In this document: positions 700-29,808 of the stretch, piece after piece
How the letters are laid out: every line of letters begins with the position of its first letter
Numbering within the stretch: position 1 is the first letter of the stretch
IMG/VR virus record: IMGVR_UViG_3300020576_005257
Location: 1 to 64,000 of that record
Source: a virus
Lineage: Duplodnaviria; Caudoviricetes
Length of the DNA stretch: 64,000 nt
Strand: one strand, 5' to 3'
Notes under the pieces: model-generated
Databases searched by the model: none
The model's input: only the letters and a program-made list of their open reading frames with translations
Told to the model about the DNA's origin: nothing
Translations under genes and position numbers: made by a program

Positions 700-791
700 G
701 GTAGTGTAGCTCAGTCGGTCAGAGCCCGTGCCTTATAAGCGCGAAGCCCCAACAAGGTATACGGTAAGTTCAAATCTTCCCACTACCACCA
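700..791 (+). tRNA. tRNA-Ile(UAU) with long variable region, nested inside the split tRNA
   Basis: GGTAGTG/CACTACC acceptor, A73-CCA, CGTGC-CT-TAT-AA-GCGCG anticodon arm, ~20-nt extra arm, GTAAG-TTCAAAT-CTTCC T arm. Confidence 0.88.
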
Positions 792-3278: not shown

Positions 3279-4015
3279 ACTAGTAATCCTTCAACCTTTT
3301 CTTCGTTTTCTTCTAAAAATCCAAGGGCTAAGTTACACGATCTGCATAAAAGACCTCTTATACACTTCCCACAAGAAAATCTTTTATTGCAACATTTATG
3401 GTCATGGTCAATACTGTGGATTGGTAAACTACATCCTTCAATTGCACATACTCCATTCTGCTTGTTGAAGAGATCGAAGTAAATGTCATATCTCATATTA
3501 TGTTTTGCTAATTGAGTACAAATTTTACAATAAGGTTTTCTTCCAGATGGCCTGCTTGATACTTTACCAAAATCTTCCAATCTTCTTGTTCTATTACACC
3601 AAGGACAAAACTTCTCTTCTAAGGTAAATTTTCTACTAGTTAAAGAAATCTTTTTTCCTTTACAGTTACTACACCCTCTTGACTTACCGGATTTCAGATC
3701 TCCCCCATTAATGGTCTTTACAATACCACAAGAACATTTACATTCCCACATTGTTCCTTTATGTCTCTTTGCTGATCTACCCAAAACGGTCCAATCCCCA
3801 AAGTTTAGACCCTCCAAATCCTTATATTCACCTTGGAGTGCTCTACCTGAAAAATGACTAATATCTATCCCCAACTCCTCTATTCTTTTTTTCACTTTTC
3901 TGATATTATAGCTATCATAGGATAAGCCACATTGATTCAAAATGTGCTTTTTGCTATCAGCTCTTTCAACTAAGTTTCTGAAAGCTGACTCTTCTATTAA
4001 ATCTATCTTTCCCAT
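3254..4015 (-). CDS. Endonuclease VII-like (His-Me) homing endonuclease
   Basis: IDHDHKCC...CGKCIRGLLCRSCNLALG; WECKCSCG...SRGC module; N-terminal IDISHFSG module. Confidence 0.88.
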   Translation of the reverse strand: MGKIDLIEESAFRNLVERADSKKHILNQCGLSYDSYNIRKVKKRIEELGIDISHFSGRALQGEYKDLEGLNFGDWTVLGRSAKRHKGTMWECKCSCGIVKTINGGDLKSGKSRGCSNCKGKKISLTSRKFTLEEKFCPWCNRTRRLEDFGKVSSRPSGRKPYCKICTQLAKHNMRYDIYFDLFNKQNGVCAIEGCSLPIHSIDHDHKCCNKRFSCGKCIRGLLCRSCNLALGFLEENEEKVEGLLVYIKESKL

Positions 4016-4051
4016 AGTAATTTAAATAGAGGATTTCCAAGGACAATAATA

Positions 4052-4408
4052 ATGATTGTTTCCCAACATAAACTGTTCGAACTTTTGGTCCCGCATCGGA
4101 TGGGCCAGCATGATAACTCTAATCCTAATATTCCTAGAAGTAATAAGACTATCCCTGTACCCTGGCACCGTGATTGGGATGCCTTTGTCATTGAAATTAG
4201 TGGTGGTTTGACTCTACAAAGGGCAACTAGAGGTCAGTGGATCTGTCCTAATGGAAAACTGTACAAAGAGATTATGATCCCTGTACGTATCGCCTGTACA
4301 GAAGAACAGATAGCTATCATAGCTGACTTTACCCTTGAACATTATAAACAGTTAGCAGTATTTGTAACTCTCATTTCAGAAAGAACTCTTATATTTACTA
4401 GAGAATAA
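4052..4408 (+). CDS. conserved phage hypothetical protein
   Basis: ELLVP...WD...ISGGLT...GQW...MIPVRIACTEEQI pattern. Confidence 0.7.
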   Translation: MIVSQHKLFELLVPHRMGQHDNSNPNIPRSNKTIPVPWHRDWDAFVIEISGGLTLQRATRGQWICPNGKLYKEIMIPVRIACTEEQIAIIADFTLEHYKQLAVFVTLISERTLIFTRE

Positions 4409-4739
4409 TTATGGAAACACAATCAGATAGTTCTACCGTTACTGAACTTACAGTTAAGGATTTACAACTTTATCCTATTTATACTGTGTATAGAGTAGCT
4501 GAACAAATACTTCCAAAAACAAAACATAGTAAAATTAGTCAGGACATTGTTATACTAGGATCTGACTCAGACGGATATAAAGTATATCATTCTGTAACTA
4601 CTTTATATTATACAGCTAAAACTTGTCCTTGGTCAGCAACTTCCTCTGGTTATAAACTTAAAGACGCTAAGAAACTAGCTTTAAAAGCTTTTAAAGATTT
4701 ATCTGAAAGACAAATTGGATGGAGGTTAACAAATAACCA

Positions 4740-20435: not shown

Positions 20436-21041
20436 ATGCAGAACCACTTGTTGCATACAGACGTTATTGATCTTATAATCAAACACCATTACCAGCGGCT
20501 AATCAATATTTCATTCCGTATTTGCGGTAATCTTGATGATGCTAACGATGTTGTTCAAGATATTTTACTTAGAGTAACTAAAGAACCAGAAAAGTATCAA
20601 GGAGAACCAATTACTACTGCCTCATCTTTTCCTTTACCAACTAACAATCCTTTCCTTTGTTACATTGTTTCTGGTATTACAAGACGTTCTATCGATAGGG
20701 CAGTTCTTTCTAAAACTAATTCTTCTCGATATTCTAAACATGCTAATTTAGAAATTACTGAACAACAATATGCTAATACTAATGATCCTAAATGTATTGA
20801 CTATTTTGGTTGCAATATGGTAACTGAATTTGATGAACCTTTTCTGGAAGAAAGGAAGTATATTATTTCCTTCTTACCTAAATTATCCTCACAACAATCT
20901 AGATTAATTATGGGTGTTTTGGAAGGAGATTCCTATCAGGAAATAGCTGACAAAAATAACATTCTTTTGGGTTCCATGAAATCTAATCTATTCAGAGCTA
21001 AAAGAAAGATAATTAATAGTTTAGTCTTAGCAAATCATTGA
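20436..21041 (+). CDS. ECF-type sigma-70 family factor
   Basis: region 2 DDANDVVQDILL; region 4 SYQEIA...LGSMKSNLFRAKRKI. Confidence 0.85.
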   Translation: MQNHLLHTDVIDLIIKHHYQRLINISFRICGNLDDANDVVQDILLRVTKEPEKYQGEPITTASSFPLPTNNPFLCYIVSGITRRSIDRAVLSKTNSSRYSKHANLEITEQQYANTNDPKCIDYFGCNMVTEFDEPFLEERKYIISFLPKLSSQQSRLIMGVLEGDSYQEIADKNNILLGSMKSNLFRAKRKIINSLVLANH

Positions 21042-21180: not shown

Positions 21181-21259
21181 GCAGTAGTAGCTCAGTGGTC
21201 GAGAGCGGGGACCTCTAAATTCCTGTCATTCATCGGGGGTTCGAATCCCCCCTACTGCG
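21181..21259 (+). tRNA. amber suppressor tRNA (anticodon CUA)
   Basis: perfect GCAGTAG/CTACTGC acceptor, GCTC/GAGC D stem, GGGAC-CT-CTA-AA-TTCCT, 10-nt variable region, GGGGG-TTCGAAT-CCCCC, G73; followed by CTA rather than CCA. Confidence 0.85.
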
Positions 21260-21267
21260 CTAACTTT

Positions 21268-22509
21268 ATGAATAACTTCTTGATATTTTCCTCACCAATA
21301 GGTTGGGGGCATGTATTTTTCTATCCGAATAATCTATTTTCTTTGACTTTATCTCAAAATGTTCTTACTATTGGCAAATTAAAGTCTGCTTCTTCACTAG
21401 AAAGAACTTATACTGTATATGATACATACAATAGTAACTATGAAGAATTTGATACACTTACTTATTCTTGGATAATGACTATTTCATATGAATATATTAA
21501 CTTAATGTTAAAGAAAACTGATGCCTAAACATATTGGTTTATATTCAAAACTTACAATTTTTCACACCTATGACTATGGTAGAATAAAGTCTTGGTTAGG
21601 AATATATTCAAGAAATCTTTATTTTGGAGTACATTCATTAAAGGGAAAAGTTGTTTATAATGTTATATATAACCAACAGTTTGAGGAGTTTGAAAAGGTT
21701 ACTTATAATGATATTTAGAGGACTTATTAACAAAGCTACCTTTCCTCCTTTGTTTACCTACTCTAGTGAGTTAAACTATGCTATTGGAGTTTTAAATATG
21801 CATAACCTCCATAGAGATTCAATTTCCTTATTTTCCGCTCCTACTCCTATAGTTAACTTTAATAATTTTTATTTAGGTCTACTTTTGTCAGTATCAAAAA
21901 TTCATTCTTATAATCTTCATCTTGACCAATACGTTACTTATAAGGTTTAAATGAAGTATCTAAATTTTGGAGTTATTCTTAATAGACTTTTACATCAAGT
22001 ACGCTATGATTCAGTAACATTTTCTAAAATACTAGAAGGAAATATTATTTATATTACTAAGAATAGTCAACATAACCTTGTGTATGATATTCTTTTTGAG
22101 GAATTTAGATAGTAAAAAATAATGTCTTCTTTAGAGAATTTTAAATTTAGTGATTTTACAAGACACGTAGATGCTATTAACCTTGAAGGCTTTATTTATG
22201 GAAACTTGCTAATTTATCTAATTTGGGATAAACAAAACATAAGATTTCTGTCTGATTATCCCCAACAGGTTTTTAAAGTTAGTCCCCATTATTATCATTC
22301 TTTTCTTTACTCTTTGAATTTGGATATGTTTTAATATGATATATAAACACTTTAGTTTTTCTGGCAAAAATACTGCATTTTTATATTCATACCCCAATCT
22401 ATTTTTCTTTGACTTAAATATGAATAACAGAATAACTATAGAAAAAAGAAGAAGGTCGTTTCGTGCCAACTTTTCCTTTTTTGATTTGTCAATGGAGTTT
22501 TATTATTAG
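21268..22509 (+). repeat. cluster of 6 YxxxLEEF-family microprotein genes (21268, 21521, 21651, 21951, 22122, 22336)
   Basis: YNSNYEEF, YNQQFEEF, YNLHLDQY, YDILFEEF, YSLNLDMF, FDLSMEFY. Confidence 0.7.
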
Positions 22510-22730
22510 CTTAAACAAGTTTTTTGTAATTCATTAAATGAAAAAAACATCTCTATTTTAATGCTGAACATGAACACTATAATGTGGAGTAACAATATGT
22601 TGTAGGTAACTTTTAATTTATATTTAATATTACTAATACTTTATAGGAATCATTCTCCTCCTTGACTGATTATCTTGTTGTTTTCTAGCTTTATGCTACT
22701 TTCACTTGAACAAACAAAATAATCAAAAAA

Positions 22731-23108
22731 ATGAAAACTTTATCAAAAAAAATTACTTCATCTTTCTATACTACTCCTGATAGTTTTAACTCTATAAAAC
22801 AAGTCTGGAAGAATAGGCTTGCCAATAAGGAACCTTTAACTGCTACTGATCATATGATCTATGCTATGTTGAGAGGTAAGGATTGGACTAAGGGGTTTAC
22901 TCCTGTTACTAATCCAAATAAGTTAGCTAACGGTAGAAAACCTAATGACACCAAAAAGAAACTCGTCTTTCTTCTTGTTTATGGTAGATTAGGTAACCAT
23001 CTTGACCCTTATAGACATTTAGTTTCTGAGTCTGCTTTTAGAGATATAACAATGAGCTTTGTTACTTCTGATGGTTATGCTACTAAAACACTTGAGGTTG
23101 CTTCGTGA
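22731..23108 (+). CDS. hypothetical protein translationally coupled to the Pth-like gene
   Basis: HMIYAMLRGK motif; its TGA overlaps the GTG at 23105. Confidence 0.7.
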   Translation: MKTLSKKITSSFYTTPDSFNSIKQVWKNRLANKEPLTATDHMIYAMLRGKDWTKGFTPVTNPNKLANGRKPNDTKKKLVFLLVYGRLGNHLDPYRHLVSESAFRDITMSFVTSDGYATKTLEVAS

Positions 23109-23419
23109 ACTAGGTAACTGAATATATCTATGTGTTTATCAGAAAAGATTTACCCATAGTTCAACAATTAGTTCAAGTAGGTCATGTTTGTTATGAAGCA
23201 GGAAATAAGTTTAACGCTTCTGACAATACTCACCTAGTTCTTTTCCAGATTAACTCAGAGAAAGAATTACTTAATATAGAAGAAAAGCTCTTATTGAAAG
23301 GAATTCTTACTCATAAATTCTTTGAACCAGATAATGATTATGGTTTTACATCTTTATGTACTGAGCCAATTTCTGGCAGTAAAAGAAGAAAGATATCTGG
23401 ATATACCCTCTGGTCTTAA
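23105..23419 (+). CDS. PTH2-like peptidyl-tRNA hydrolase with in-frame TAG at codon 3
   Basis: GAGGT SD at 23094-98, GTG AAC TAG GTA ACT GAA TAT ATC TAT GTG TTT; YIYVFIRKDL...QVGHV, LVL, FFEPD...TSLCTEP motifs. Confidence 0.75.
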
Positions 23420-23431
23420 GACCAGAGGGTA
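23404..23431. terminator. 28-bp perfect palindrome over the Pth-like stop codon
   Basis: TACCCTCTGGTCTT|AAGACCAGAGGGTA. Confidence 0.6.
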
Positions 23432-23442
23432 AACTGATTTCA

Positions 23443-26004
23443 ATGTTTATAAATCGAAGTTATAGTTTTTTTTACAATGAAGCAAAATTTGAGCCCACTA
23501 ATCCTACTGATTGGGATCTATATTTTTGTATTGATTACCATATCTCTCTTGTAAAAATTTCTACTTTTGATCAACTGTTTTCTAATAAAAAATGCCTTTC
23601 CTATGATTTTAAAATAGAAGCATTTATATGATATGAACTTCTTTGATTTTACATATTCTAATACTCCTCTTGGTACTTTTTTTGAATATAGAACTAAGCC
23701 TGTTGCCTTATTCAATAAAAATACCATTCTTATAGAAAATACATTTGGATCAATTTTAAGATTTTGTGGTGGTTTACTCTTTATGTTTTCTTATAACTCT
23801 AATTTAGAGGTGTTTGGATATCCAGACTAACTTACCTTATATGTACGATAGAAATGGAAAATATAGTTGGTCCTCTAATGATACTAGAAACTTTCTGTTT
23901 CAAGTTTTGTATCGTAAAGACATACTAATAATGCTACCTAGCTATGGTGAATTTTACTATTACCCAGACCTTGAAGAATTTTCCTTACATTAGTATGTTA
24001 ATTTTATATAATCACGCTTTAAAATATATTCCTCTTAGTCACCAAAGTCTCTCTAAATATCAATTTCTACCATCTAAGCCTTCTGCAATTACTCTCTTTA
24101 CTAGGTTTACTAGACCTATTTTTTATGAATGTACATTAGAAGAATTTATTTGATTATATGAGCGTATTTCTTGCACTTTACAATATAAGATTAAAACGTT
24201 CTTTTAATCTTATATTTAATCAAATTACAAAGAAACCTGGATTTAATTTTCATTATTCAAAAAATGGTCAATATACATGTCTGTTTGATTCTAATCAACC
24301 ATATCAAATAAATTTTTATTCTTCTTTTTTTGTTAATGGAATTTATCTTATAAGGCCTTGGCCTAGTACAACTTTTGTTTATAACTCATCCTTGGATGAG
24401 TTTGAATGTTTATGAAATATCTTTCTAATGATCCTCCTGGAGAGACTCAAATGCCTTTTGAAATAAGGCATTCTTATGTATATACTATTGACAATCTTCC
24501 TAAGATTATTATAGTTCAACTAAAGAATTATTTTCTGTTCGAATTTTATCCTATTAAAGATATTTATAAAGATGTTTACTATCAATTTAAATTGGAAATT
24601 TTTGAGAGGATAAGAAACAATTACTTATGATAAAATTAGCTACTAAGAAACCTTTAAAGGATGCCATTATTGGTCAAGTTGTACTACTAAATGGTAATCC
24701 TAGAATAGTCAAAAAGATAAAGAAACCTTTTTTATTTAGAACTACCTATACAGTAGTTTTTGATGACAATAGTACTATAGCTTTTACTAATACAGATCCT
24801 TACTACACTTTATTATTTCCTTTTTGGATGAGTATGGAAGATTATCAAGAAGATGTTAGAATGGGCGAACTGCCTGTTAATGAATTGTGGTTAGAAGATA
24901 ATCCTGTTTCTTTAGTAGAAAAACCAAAGAAAAATGTTCAAATTATTGAAATTAAGAAAAAACAAATAAAACTTAATTCTACTAAAGAAAATTGTGATTG
25001 TGGAAATGATTGTGAATGCAAAACCCATAAAGACTAACTTCCCAGCATCTATTACTGGTAGAATTTCTGTGTCAGGTTTTCCTAATCGTAATCACATTAT
25101 AATAACTAATTTTCTTGATTACGATAAAGTTAATTTCTATGATTCAACCATTTCTTTTGGTTATCAAAAAAATAGTCTATATAACAGTTTTAGTAATACA
25201 CCACGTACTTTCTTCTGGATAACTTCTGACATGTCTACCTATGTTTCACAATATGAAGACTTTGAGAAGCCTACAGGATTTAAAGTTAGTTGAATACTCC
25301 TTTAACTTTGGATATATTAGAACTTTCTATTAGGAAAATATTTAGCCAACCTGTAACAGGACCTCATGTTCATCCTGTATTTTTTCAAGATATGGTACAC
25401 ACTGAAGGTAAAGTTTATTTTCATAAATCAGAAACCACAAAAATAATAGTTTTTTGTGAAGGTTTTCAATTTGTTTTTCTTCCTGATGGTAAATTTATCT
25501 CAGCACAATTTTATCCTCTTTCTCACTTTTTTAATTCTAAAGATAAATTATTCTATTTACTACAATATGATATATTTCAATTGGATTCTTGATTATTATG
25601 AAATATCATAAGTATGAAAATCAATATTATCCAGCGTGGATAGGAGGAGAACCTCTTGGTTTATTTTACTATAACTCACTTACTTTATTTGTATTTAAAA
25701 CTCAAGAACAACTTATTTTATTTTCTAAAGCTGTTAATGGTATACAGAAATTCAAATTTCCAGATTTACTTTTTGGTTACGAGGTAAATTTAGAAGATTA
25801 TTTGTGTGATAAAATATAGTGCTATACGATATATTTAAGTTTGATAAATATTCAACTGGAAGTAATGAGATTCATTACATAGATAAAAATTCTAAGTTAT
25901 TGATGACTTTCTGTTTCAACCATCTTTGTTTTTTTGAAACTGATTGGCGTATATATTTTGCTTATGATTTTTCATTGGATGAGTTCGGAGTTTCTCATGT
26001 ATAA
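23443..26004 (+). repeat. cluster of 10 YxxxLEEF-family microprotein genes, interrupted by unrelated 24627..25037
   Basis: YDFKIEAF, YNSNLEVF, YYPDLEEF, YECTLEEF, YNSSLDEF, YQFKLEIF, YVSQYEDF, YLLQYDIF, YEVNLEDY, YDFSLDEF. Confidence 0.75.
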
Positions 26005-29533: not shown

Positions 29534-29808
29534 GCCCCAGTAGCTTAGTGGATAAAGCAACAGCCTTCTGCTAATAATATAACAGTGGGCCTTATAAGGG
29601 AAACCCTATAAGTGTAAGTTGTCAAATTCGGTGAACGCTAAAGAGAAATCCATGCCAATACCGAGCCAAGCCCTTTATGGGAAGGTGTAGAGACTAGACG
29701 GCAACTACCTAATCTCCTTTGGAGTAAGGTAAAGGTATAGTCCAACGAGTCAGGAAACTGACATAAAGTTGAAGCTGTTTATCGGAGGTTCGAGTCCTCT
29801 CTGGGGCG
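29534..29808 (+). tRNA. tRNA-Arg(UCU), exons 29534-29569 and 29772-29808, split by group I intron
   Basis: spliced: GCCCCAG-TA-GCTT-AGTGGATA-AAGC-A-ACAGC-CT-TCT-AA-GCTGT-TTATC-GGAGG-TTCGAGT-CCTCT-CTGGGGC-G. Confidence 0.9.
29570..29771 (+). ncRNA. group I intron, subgroup IC3 (Azoarcus-like), 202 nt, no ORF
   Basis: P1 UCU/GGG with U.G at splice site, P2 GAAA loop, TGTCAAATTCGG, CCGAGCCAAGC, GAAGGTGTAGAGACTAGACGGCA, ATAGTCCA, P9 GTCAG-GAAA-CTGAC, P9.0 AAC/GTT then terminal G. Confidence 0.93.

What the first reader, a model, noticed from the sequence alone, without database searches (positions are those of the whole stretch)
21181..23419. Amber suppressor tRNA plus a peptidyl-tRNA hydrolase-like gene gated by TAG at codon 3
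Seen: a CUA-anticodon tRNA at 21181; at 23105 a GTG with a well-spaced GAGGT SD, coupled to the upstream stop (GTGA), reads M-N-TAG-V-T-E-Y-I-Y-V-F-I-R-K-D-L. The first beta-strand of the PTH2-like fold lies partly upstream of the track start (23132), which has no SD. TAG is otherwise a normal stop here (e.g. 13070, 16167, 20218) and long genes have no internal TAG, so this window is not recoded. Inference: a translational switch in which the hydrolase is made only on amber readthrough (suppressor present or RF1 limiting); otherwise a two-codon minigene is made, and minigenes are known to cause peptidyl-tRNA drop-off.
Basis: partly seen in the sequence, partly recalled or inferred. Interest (0 to 1): 0.82.

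Follow-up and report, generated by a model that had tools for sequence, protein, structure and literature searches.

The report
Amber-gated phage Pth2-like gene
A giant phage that otherwise uses the normal genetic code keeps the stop codon UAG as the third codon of a small tRNA-hydrolase-like gene and carries its own UAG-reading tRNA nearby; many distant phages, some lab-grown, keep the same pairing, so the enzyme is probably made only when that tRNA overrides the stop.

Summary
Observation confirmed. The window is the first 64 kb of a 235-kb uncultured phage. It has a CUA-anticodon tRNA (21181-21259). On the same strand, 1.85 kb downstream, lies a 104-codon Pth2-fold gene whose SD-served GTG (23105) is followed by AAC and TAG (23111-23113). 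AlphaFold2 puts strand beta1 at residues 7-13, so the TAG-free start GTG 23132 (residue 10) would cut it.

The decisive evidence is comparative. Among 26 distinct homologous loci:
- 15 have TAG at codon 2-6, most behind a visible SD. These include cultured phages ME3, BF, CBB, RsoM2USA and Arash, where the gene is unannotated, truncated or split.
- 3 have mid-gene TAGs, and none has an in-frame TGA or TAA.
- The base after the gate TAG is a purine in 15 of 15.
- 17 have a tRNA-CUA in the fetched flanks.

The genome itself is not recoded: TAG ends 35 of 297 long ORFs, and it has no release-factor or GlnRS gene. The gene is therefore most likely translated only when the phage tRNA reads UAG.

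Untested: the enzyme's substrate, the inserted amino acid, and the minigene/drop-off idea. I found no paper linking phage PTH2 with the 'orphan' phage suppressor tRNAs. Earlier follow-ups of this scan reported the same cassette on other DNA.

The parts
21181..21259 (+). tRNA with anticodon CUA (amber suppressor type). The loop is CUCUAAA. It has a C31.U39 mismatch, a variable loop of about 10 nt, discriminator G, and no encoded CCA.
   Evidence: ARAGORN; Rfam RF00005 55.6 bits; alignment with 12 other cassette tRNA-CUAs, with C34 U35 A36 A37 A38 invariant
22731..23108 (+). Upstream partner gene of 125 codons and no known family. Its TGA overlaps the GTG of the Pth2-like gene (GTGA).
   Evidence: ORF list; a homologue lies directly upstream of the Pth2-like gene in 10 of 23 loci; at least 133 database relatives, all unnamed except one stray label and none with a Pfam domain; the AF2 model is poor, pLDDT 58.7
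23094..23098 (+). Shine-Dalgarno GAGGT, 6 nt before GTG 23105
   Evidence: Sequence; comparable SDs sit before the start of most of the early-TAG relatives
23105..23107 (+). Proposed start codon GTG
23111..23113 (+). In-frame amber codon TAG, codon 3, followed by G (purine)
   Evidence: conserved early TAG in relatives
23105..23419 (+). Pth2-fold gene, 104 codons when TAG is read as a residue
   Evidence: AF2 pLDDT 96.7; Foldseek top hits are archaeal Pth2 and human Bit1, TM about 0.75; family profile against solved Pth2 chains, E 5e-5; 892 relatives
23132..23134 (+). Alternative TAG-free start GTG (residue 10). This is the start the gene callers used (95-aa product P0002).
   Evidence: it lies inside strand beta1
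23405..23430 (+). Perfect 11-bp hairpin with the TAA stop codon in its 4-nt loop. No T run follows.
   Evidence: Sequence check; not called a terminator by the scan

Best explanation
The tRNA-CUA, the 125-codon partner gene and the Pth2-like gene belong to a conserved phage cassette.

Proposed mechanism: ribosomes start at the SD-served GTG 23105 and meet UAG as the third codon. Only when the phage's own CUA tRNA is made, charged and wins against RF1 do they go on to make the full 104-residue Pth2-fold protein. Otherwise they release a dipeptide. Output of the enzyme is thus tied to amber-suppressor activity.

The TAG sits in the short tail before strand beta1. There the identity of the inserted residue should not matter, and the aborted product is minimal.

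The enzyme is most likely an ester hydrolase acting on peptidyl- or N-blocked aminoacyl-tRNA, serving or tuning the suppressor's activity.

What is shown and what is inferred:
- Shown: the sequence anatomy, the fold, conservation of the early TAG, linkage to tRNA-CUA, and that the genome is not recoded.
- Inferred: that the tRNA is expressed and charged, that it decodes this TAG, and what the enzyme does.
For: (1) Anatomy. The SD, GTG, AAC and TAG are as described, and the start overlaps the upstream gene's stop.

(2) Fold. beta1 spans residues 7-13, so the TAG-free start at residue 10 is inside it. Family members start 2-6 residues before the Y-x-Y-x-F-V-R strand.

(3) Early TAG in relatives. 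TAG sits at codon 2-6 in 15 of 26 distinct loci: window, L003, L053, L055, L066, L067, L069, L070, L089, L091, and cultured ME3, BF, CBB, RsoM2USA and Arash. An SD before the upstream start is visible in most of them.

(4) Mis-called homologues. Four of five database homologues with cut N-termini whose DNA I could fetch were early-TAG genes mis-called by gene finders. The fifth (L090) starts at a TTG just after the upstream gene's TAG.

(5) Mid-gene TAGs. They lie in conserved parts of the gene in L062, L064/65 and L003. No in-frame TGA or TAA occurs in any member.

(6) Context. The base after the gate TAG is a purine in 15 of 15 (A in 13). At TAGs that end ORFs in this genome it is a purine in 15 of 35 (Fisher 8e-5). 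From classical E. coli work, recalled and not tested here, a 3' purine favours amber suppression.

(7) Linkage. A tRNA-CUA lies in the fetched flanks of 17 of 26 loci, often as the adjacent gene. Distances in cultured phages are ME3 0.45 kb, Arash 1 kb, BF 3.3 kb, CBB 3.7 kb and RsoM2USA 13 kb. All cassette tRNAs aligned share the loop core CUAAA.

(8) Phylogeny. The early-TAG trait is spread over the whole family tree on long branches, with at least 4 changes. It is therefore maintained by selection, not recent damage.

(9) The genome is not recoded and has no RF or GlnRS gene. The gate is a local device.
Against: Nothing is experimental: expression, charging and identity of the tRNA are unknown.

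The window's tRNA is atypical. It has a C31.U39 mismatch and a variable loop of about 10 nt, and its thermodynamic MFE is not a cloverleaf.

TAG ends about 12% of the long ORFs of this phage, with no enrichment of back-up stops (median 17 codons to the next TAA/TGA, against 11-14 after the other stops). A strong suppressor should therefore be costly.

In this window a canonical GTG does exist 6 codons after the TAG, so a shortened protein by reinitiation cannot be excluded here.

Nine of 26 family members have no TAG at all, although 7 of those 9 still sit beside a tRNA-CUA. Gating is therefore not obligatory for the family.

The single sequence does not reach Pfam's PTH2 threshold (13.5 bits against 23), and catalytic competence is untested.
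Confidence: 0.7

Rival explanations
1. TAG is a true stop. GTG-AAC-TAG is a two-codon leader ORF. The real protein starts at GTG 23132 by termination-reinitiation or coupling, giving a 95-residue protein. The tRNA-CUA nearby serves something else.
For: GTG 23132 exists in frame 18 nt after the TAG. Gene callers chose it. SD use is weak in this phage overall (36% of long genes against 16% in the control), so the lack of an SD there is a weak argument.
Against: The start would fall inside beta1. Relatives L003, L055, RsoM2USA and Arash have no canonical start at the matching position. Mid-gene TAGs in L062, L064 and L003 cannot be passed by reinitiation. It does not explain the purine after TAG or the tRNA-CUA linkage.
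Confidence: 0.12
2. The gate is real, but it is read mainly by host factors rather than by the phage tRNA: near-cognate readthrough, or low RF1 activity late in infection. In that case it senses termination capacity.
For: Several contigs with the gated gene show no tRNA-CUA in the fetched DNA (L003, L055, L066, L069, L089).
Against: Those contigs are short or fragmentary. Every complete genome checked (the window's 95%-complete record and five cultured phages) holds a tRNA-CUA. Ungated family members also sit next to tRNA-CUA, which points to a functional tie with the tRNA itself.
Confidence: 0.08
3. The phage uses TAG as a sense codon generally (code 15-type recoding), and this gene is merely one of many TAG-bearing genes.
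For: A phage suppressor tRNA is present. Relatives G002 and G003 carry TAGs inside this gene. In BF, CBB and RsoM2USA the next gene also carries a TAG.
Against: In this genome 35 of 297 long ORFs end in TAG, and the inspected ones are followed by an SD and the next gene's start. No other in-frame TAG is supported by coding potential or cross-genome alignments, though the latter had low power with only 1-7 shared ORFs. There is no RF2 or aaRS gene.
Confidence: 0.05
4. Pseudogene, recent nonsense mutation or assembly error.
For: A single early stop in one metagenomic contig looks like damage.
Against: The same feature occurs in 15 independent genomes, including finished genomes of cultured phages. 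The rest of the ORF is intact and models with very high confidence.
Confidence: 0.02

Closest known systems
Stop-codon-recoded phages with phage-encoded suppressor tRNAs (TAG read as Gln, 'code 15': crAss-like, Lak and other gut phages; bioRxiv 10.1101/2021.08.26.457843, PMC9523058)
   Same: A phage-borne CUA tRNA lets in-frame TAGs in phage genes be translated in a standard-code host. The published idea is that such TAGs hold back translation of certain genes until the tRNA is active.
   Different: In those phages, dozens to hundreds of TAGs are scattered through late genes, TAG is avoided as a stop, and RF2 or aaRS genes are often present. Here TAG remains an ordinary stop. I found one supported in-frame TAG in 235 kb, at a fixed place (codon 2-6) of one small non-structural gene, and no RF or aaRS gene.
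prfB (RF2) autoregulation through an early in-frame UGA
   Same: A conserved in-frame stop near the start of a translation-factor gene makes its output depend on how that stop is decoded.
   Different: prfB uses a +1 frameshift and senses its own product.
Archaeal/eukaryotic peptidyl-tRNA hydrolase 2 (Pth2, PF01981; PDB 2zv3, 3erj, 1wn2, 1xty, 1q7s) and the PTH2 genes noted in jumbo phages by Iyer et al. 2021 (PMC7824862)
   Same: The fold is the same (TM about 0.75). The R-x-D-L and Q-x-x-H-A motifs are shared, and an Asp aligns with the D of the D-A-G region. Iyer et al. already list PTH2 across jumbo phage groups 2 and 3 and propose ribosome rescue.
   Different: The phage family is shorter and lacks the G-K-G-K loop (a Gln aligns there). 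It falls below Pfam's threshold. That paper never uses the word 'suppressor', and its only 'amber' is in a reference title, so it mentions neither the amber codon nor the tRNA link.
Orphan CUA tRNAs of standard-code jumbo phages (XacN1, PMC5852040; RsoM2USA, PMC8504454)
   Same: Cultured jumbo phages carry a tRNA-CUA and have an otherwise standard code. RsoM2USA is one of the phages in which I find the gated gene.
   Different: The XacN1 authors read through 18 terminal amber stops and found no target. The RsoM2USA authors only noted that UAG is abundant. The target proposed here is an early, unannotated TAG that such a screen would miss.
Lambda bar minigenes (AUG-AUA-stop), recalled from the literature
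   Same: An SD-served two-codon ORF that ends in a stop. Such ORFs shed peptidyl-tRNA and tax Pth.
   Different: Here the mini-ORF is in frame with, and directly continuous with, a hydrolase gene, and it ends in the one stop codon for which the phage carries a reader. Drop-off was not tested.

Membership tests
Pth2 (PF01981) peptidyl-tRNA hydrolase | Pth2 alpha/beta fold | tested here: met
   AF2 pLDDT 96.7, pTM 0.89. The 13 best Foldseek hits are Pth2/Bit1-type chains, E 1e-5 to 1e-3, TM 0.7-0.78.
Pth2 (PF01981) peptidyl-tRNA hydrolase | Score above Pfam's gathering threshold | tested here: not met
   13.5 bits against a cut-off of 23, E 0.085. The family search in the genome is also silent. 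A profile of 39 relatives does reach solved Pth2 chains (24bt E 5e-5, 2zv3 0.011).
Pth2 (PF01981) peptidyl-tRNA hydrolase | Catalytic residues (from memory for S. solfataricus Pth2: a Lys in the G-K loop, an Asp and a Thr in the D-A-G-x-T region) | tested here: inconclusive
   R13, D15, Q24, H27 and D76 are invariant and T86 nearly so. D76 aligns with the Asp of the D-A region, but the G-K-G-K loop is replaced and a Gln aligns with the Lys. The residue numbers of the reference enzyme are recalled, not checked.
Pth2 (PF01981) peptidyl-tRNA hydrolase | Hydrolysis of peptidyl-tRNA | not testable with these tools
   Needs an enzyme assay.
Code-15 type recoded phage | Phage-encoded tRNA-CUA | tested here: met
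Code-15 type recoded phage | Many in-frame TAGs in (late) genes, and TAG not used as a stop | tested here: not met
   35 of 297 ORFs of at least 100 codons end in TAG, and inspected cases are followed by an SD and the next start. No other supported in-frame TAG was found.
Code-15 type recoded phage | Accessory RF2 or aaRS gene (frequent, not obligatory) | tested here: not met
   PF00472 and PF00749 are silent in the 95%-complete genome, with positive controls ringing.
Amber-gated Pth2-like cassette (as seen here and in earlier notes of the scan) | In-frame TAG within the first 6 codons behind an SD-served start | tested here: met
   Codon 3, GAGGT 6 nt before GTG.
Amber-gated Pth2-like cassette (as seen here and in earlier notes of the scan) | tRNA-CUA on the same genome, same strand, nearby | tested here: met
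   1.85 kb upstream, + strand.
prfB-like autoregulatory recoding | The gene product feeds back on decoding of its own in-frame stop | not testable with these tools
The idea rests only on the enzyme class and on ungated members also sitting next to tRNA-CUA.

The most novel reading that the evidence does not exclude
The cassette is a self-contained feedback controller. The Pth2-like enzyme acts on the acylated or peptidyl form of the phage's own CUA tRNA (or on ribosomes paused at UAG). Because the enzyme can only be made by UAG readthrough, it sets the level of amber suppression in the infected cell. That would give standard-code phages a private, self-limiting decoding channel and would explain their 'orphan' suppressor tRNAs.
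Probability: 0.2. Interest if true: 0.9.

Novelty: new variant of a known kind. Interest (0 to 1): 0.7.

Why it matters
Suppressor tRNAs in phages that use the standard code have been a loose end. The XacN1 and RsoM2USA papers note them and name no target. This finding gives them a conserved, specific target: an early amber codon in a tRNA-hydrolase-like gene that annotation pipelines systematically miss, truncate or split.

It is a natural example of a suppressor-tRNA-dependent gene gate, the same logic that synthetic biologists build on purpose. It is directly testable in cultured phages of ordinary laboratory hosts.

It also corrects gene models in several GenBank records.

If the enzyme turns out to act on the suppressor itself, this would be a new kind of translational feedback circuit.

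Tried and rejected
- DNA-level search of the region against cultured phages found nothing.
- The word-indexed protein search found only the window's own truncated call.
- An alignment of 39 relatives was too diverse for the search for related loci. A 6-sequence alignment worked.
- Stop-to-stop ORF totals under alternative codes were uninformative, because every readthrough inflates spurious ORFs in an AT-rich genome.
- Cross-genome alignments to look for other in-frame TAGs had little power, because G000-G003 share only 1-7 ORFs.
- Two other ORFs of this genome have a start, 1-3 codons, TAG and a long startless stretch (TAG at 120730 on the minus strand and at 211767 on the plus strand). They gave no Pfam or PHROG match and remain unresolved.
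- The back-up-stop test after terminal TAGs showed no enrichment.
- The promoter scan was at chance level.
- The partner protein gave a poor AF2 model (pLDDT 58.7), so no fold search was run on it.
- The complex prediction of the partner with the Pth2-like protein gave no verdict, after two refusals because the machine was busy.
- The downstream gene that is conserved in cultured phages has no homologue in this genome and no Pfam domain.
- Initiation at the codon right after TAG was considered and rejected. Those codons (GTA, ATT, ATC, AAT, AAA, AAC, ACG, ACA, ACT) are not a consistent start-like set.
- The amino-acid identity of the tRNA could not be assigned. Acceptor stems and discriminator bases differ among the cassette tRNAs.
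Full report
**What is in the window**

The window is the first 64 kb of a single 234,927-bp viral contig (GC 36%, CheckV completeness 95%).

ARAGORN finds a tRNA with anticodon CTA at 21181-21260. Rfam's tRNA model scores it 55.6 bits. Its anticodon loop is CUCUAAA. Unusual points are a C31.U39 mismatch at the bottom of the anticodon stem, a variable loop of about 10 nt, and no encoded CCA. Its thermodynamic minimum-energy fold is not a cloverleaf, which is common for tRNAs but is noted.

- GAGGT at 23094-23098, then 6 nt.
- GTG 23105, AAC, TAG 23111-23113.
- Six sense codons, then GTG 23132.
- An open frame to TAA 23417-23419.

The GTG at 23105 overlaps the TGA of the upstream ORF 22731-23108. 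The stop codon of the gene lies in the loop of a perfect 11-bp hairpin, 23405-23430.

**What the protein is**

Read with a residue at the TAG, the product has 104 residues.
- Alone it misses Pfam's PTH2 threshold: 13.5 bits against 23.
- It matches PHROG 1866 from residue 4 onward.
- It has 892 relatives in the representative library.
- A profile of 39 relatives reaches solved Pth2 chains: 24bt E 5e-5, 2zv3 0.011.
- The AlphaFold2 model is very confident (pLDDT 96.7), and its best structural matches are all archaeal Pth2 and human Bit1, TM about 0.75.

R13, D15, Q24, H27 and D76 are invariant in the family. D76 aligns with the Asp of the D-A region of Pth2. The G-K-G-K loop of Pth2 is absent.

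I therefore call it Pth2-like. The fold and several motifs are shared, the Pfam threshold is not met, and catalysis is untested.

**Where the gene starts**

The model's first strand is residues 7-13. Homologues begin 2-6 residues before that strand. GTG 23132 is residue 10, inside the strand.

SD use in this phage is only moderate (36% of long genes against 16% in controls). The missing SD at 23132 is therefore a weak argument on its own, while the well-placed GAGGT before 23105 is a positive one.

Within this genome alone, 'start, a few codons, stop, long ORF' occurs by chance with all three stops: 14 TAG, 21 TGA, 24 TAA. The case has to be decided by comparison.

**Comparison with other genomes**

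I collected homologous loci from:
- IMG/VR.
- Public assemblies, by way of database homologues with cut N-termini.
- Cultured phages.

I read each in frame with the stops kept. Among 26 distinct loci:

- 15 have TAG at codon 2-6, and most show a recognisable SD before the start. They are the window (codon 3), L003, L055, L066, L067, L069 and L070 (codon 3), L089 (codon 2), L091 (codon 5) and L053 (codon 6, followed by an internal ATG).
- The 15 also include the cultured phages Acinetobacter ME3, Ralstonia RsoM2USA and Salmonella Arash (codon 3), and Serratia BF and Pectobacterium CBB (codon 4).
- Three loci have TAGs in the conserved body of the gene (L062, L064/65, and a second one in L003).
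- No member has an in-frame TGA or TAA.

In GenBank the gene is started too late in ME3, truncated in CBB, absent in BF and RsoM2USA, and split in two in Arash.

Of five truncated database homologues whose DNA I could fetch, four were early-TAG genes mis-called by gene finders. The fifth (L090) starts at a TTG right after the upstream gene's TAG.

The base after the gate TAG is a purine in 15 of 15 (A in 13). At TAGs that end ORFs in this genome it is a purine in 15 of 35 (Fisher 8e-5). From classical E. coli work, which I recall and did not test, a 3' purine favours amber suppression.

On a maximum-likelihood tree the early-TAG members are spread over the whole family on long branches, with at least 4 changes and weak resolution. 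The codon is maintained, not recent damage.

**Link with the tRNA**

A tRNA-CUA lies in the fetched flanks of 17 of the 26 loci, often as the adjacent gene.

In the cultured genomes the distances are:

| Phage | Distance from the gene to its tRNA-CUA |
|---|---|
| ME3 | 0.45 kb |
| Arash | 1 kb |
| BF | 3.3 kb |
| CBB | 3.7 kb |
| RsoM2USA | 13 kb |

Seven of the nine members without any TAG also sit beside a tRNA-CUA. The tie between enzyme and tRNA therefore goes beyond the gate.

The 13 cassette tRNAs that I aligned share C34 U35 A36 A37 A38 but differ in acceptor stem and discriminator base. The inserted amino acid is therefore probably not the same everywhere. That fits a TAG placed in a tail where residue identity should not matter.

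The four genomes I fetched whole share only 1-7 ORFs. This is a mobile or ancient module, not a trait of one phage lineage.

**Is the phage recoded?**

No.
- TAG ends 35 of 297 ORFs of at least 100 codons. The cases I inspected are followed by an SD and the next gene's ATG.
- Coding-potential and cross-genome tests gave no other supported in-frame TAG, though with limited power.
- There is no release-factor or GlnRS/GluRS-type gene.
- Two further ORFs with a very early TAG remain unresolved.

A cost follows. If the suppressor is efficient, about a tenth of the phage's own genes would be extended (median 17 codons), and I see no enrichment of back-up stops. This argues for modest or timed suppression, and it is the main internal argument against a strong constitutive suppressor.

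**Partner gene**

The upstream 125-codon gene, which overlaps the start as GTGA, has a homologue directly upstream of the Pth2-like gene in 10 of 23 loci. It has at least 133 database relatives, all unnamed except one stray label and none with a Pfam domain. Its model is poor. Its role is unknown.

**Mechanism and rivals**

Best reading (0.7): translation starts at 23105, and the full protein is made only when the phage tRNA-CUA decodes codon 3. Otherwise a dipeptide is released.

The rivals fare as follows:
- Reinitiation at 23132 (0.12) cannot explain relatives without a start there, the mid-gene TAGs, or the tRNA link.
- Readthrough by host factors alone (0.08) is not excluded on short contigs, but every complete genome checked has the tRNA.
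- General recoding (0.05) fails the tests above.
- Damage or error (0.02) fails on conservation.

**Literature and earlier notes**

- Iyer et al. 2021 list PTH2 across jumbo phages and suggest ribosome rescue. The paper never uses the word 'suppressor', and its only 'amber' is in a reference title (PMC7824862).
- The XacN1 paper reports two CUA tRNAs and, after reading through 18 terminal amber stops, no target (PMC5852040).
- The RsoM2USA paper notes its CUA tRNA without a target (PMC8504454).
- Six searches of the held library found no paper that links the two. Subscription journals are largely outside that library.

After I had found the conserved early TAG and the tRNA link in relatives and cultured phages, a look-up showed that earlier follow-ups of this scan had reported the same cassette on other genomes. 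They agree with what I see. One later check there stressed that nothing is experimental and that a strong suppressor would be costly. I tested that for this genome and I share the point.

Noticed in passing
G000 218452-218526 (outside the window; locus L086): The same phage also carries a 75-nt tRNA with anticodon UCA (opal-suppressor type). I found no convincing TGA-gated gene near it. TGA ends 75 of 297 long ORFs.
   Followed up: partly
window 29557-29764: Group I catalytic intron, Rfam RF00028, 96 bits, E 1.6e-23. The host gene was not examined.
   Followed up: no
window 700-791: tRNA with anticodon UAU (Ile type) and a long variable arm of about 18 nt, which is unusual for tRNA-Ile.
   Followed up: no
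window about 21300-25600: More than ten small same-strand ORFs (53-100 codons) flank the partner/Pth2-like pair. Many end in a similar motif: aromatic, two or three residues, L/F, acidic, acidic, F. It looks like a tandem paralogue array.
   Followed up: no
L072 3312-3878 (Serratia phage BF), L073 3312-3878 (CBB), L074 about 3900-4475 (RsoM2USA): The gene directly downstream of the Pth2-like gene in cultured phages is intact in ME3 and Arash (about 180-190 aa, with an H-D-C-G-K-P motif). It carries an in-frame TAG at codon 47 in BF and CBB, where it is annotated as two CDSs. In RsoM2USA it appears to open M-K-S-TAG. So a second gene of the cassette is TAG-bearing. It has no Pfam match and no homologue in this genome.
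   Followed up: partly
G000 TAG at 120730 (minus strand; L084) and at 211767 (plus strand; L085): Two further ORFs with ATG, 1-3 codons, TAG and then 29 or 18 codons without any canonical start before a long ORF. Neither has a Pfam or PHROG match, so it is undecided whether they are also gated.
   Followed up: partly
GenBank KU935715 (ME3_195), KU574722 (CBB_406), KY630187, MG752970, OQ632216 (gp85c/gp84c): The Pth2-like gene is mis-annotated in the cultured phages because of the early TAG: late start, truncation, no CDS at all, or a split into two CDSs. The Arash tRNA-CUA is labelled tRNA-Phe.
   Followed up: yes
window 20436-21041: A sigma-70-family factor gene (regions 2 and 4, Pfam; PHROG 1740) lies just upstream of the tRNA-CUA.
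   Followed up: no
L059 5365-5439: In one relative, ARAGORN reads the cassette tRNA with a four-base anticodon 'ctaa', that is, an 8-nt loop. This could be a calling artefact or a variant loop.
   Followed up: no
L089 (Logan contig SRR27098865_55389): Here the gate is ATG-TAG (codon 2). The neighbours look cellular (ClpX, PilZ, peptidase M23), so the cassette may also sit in bacterial chromosomes or prophages.
   Followed up: no
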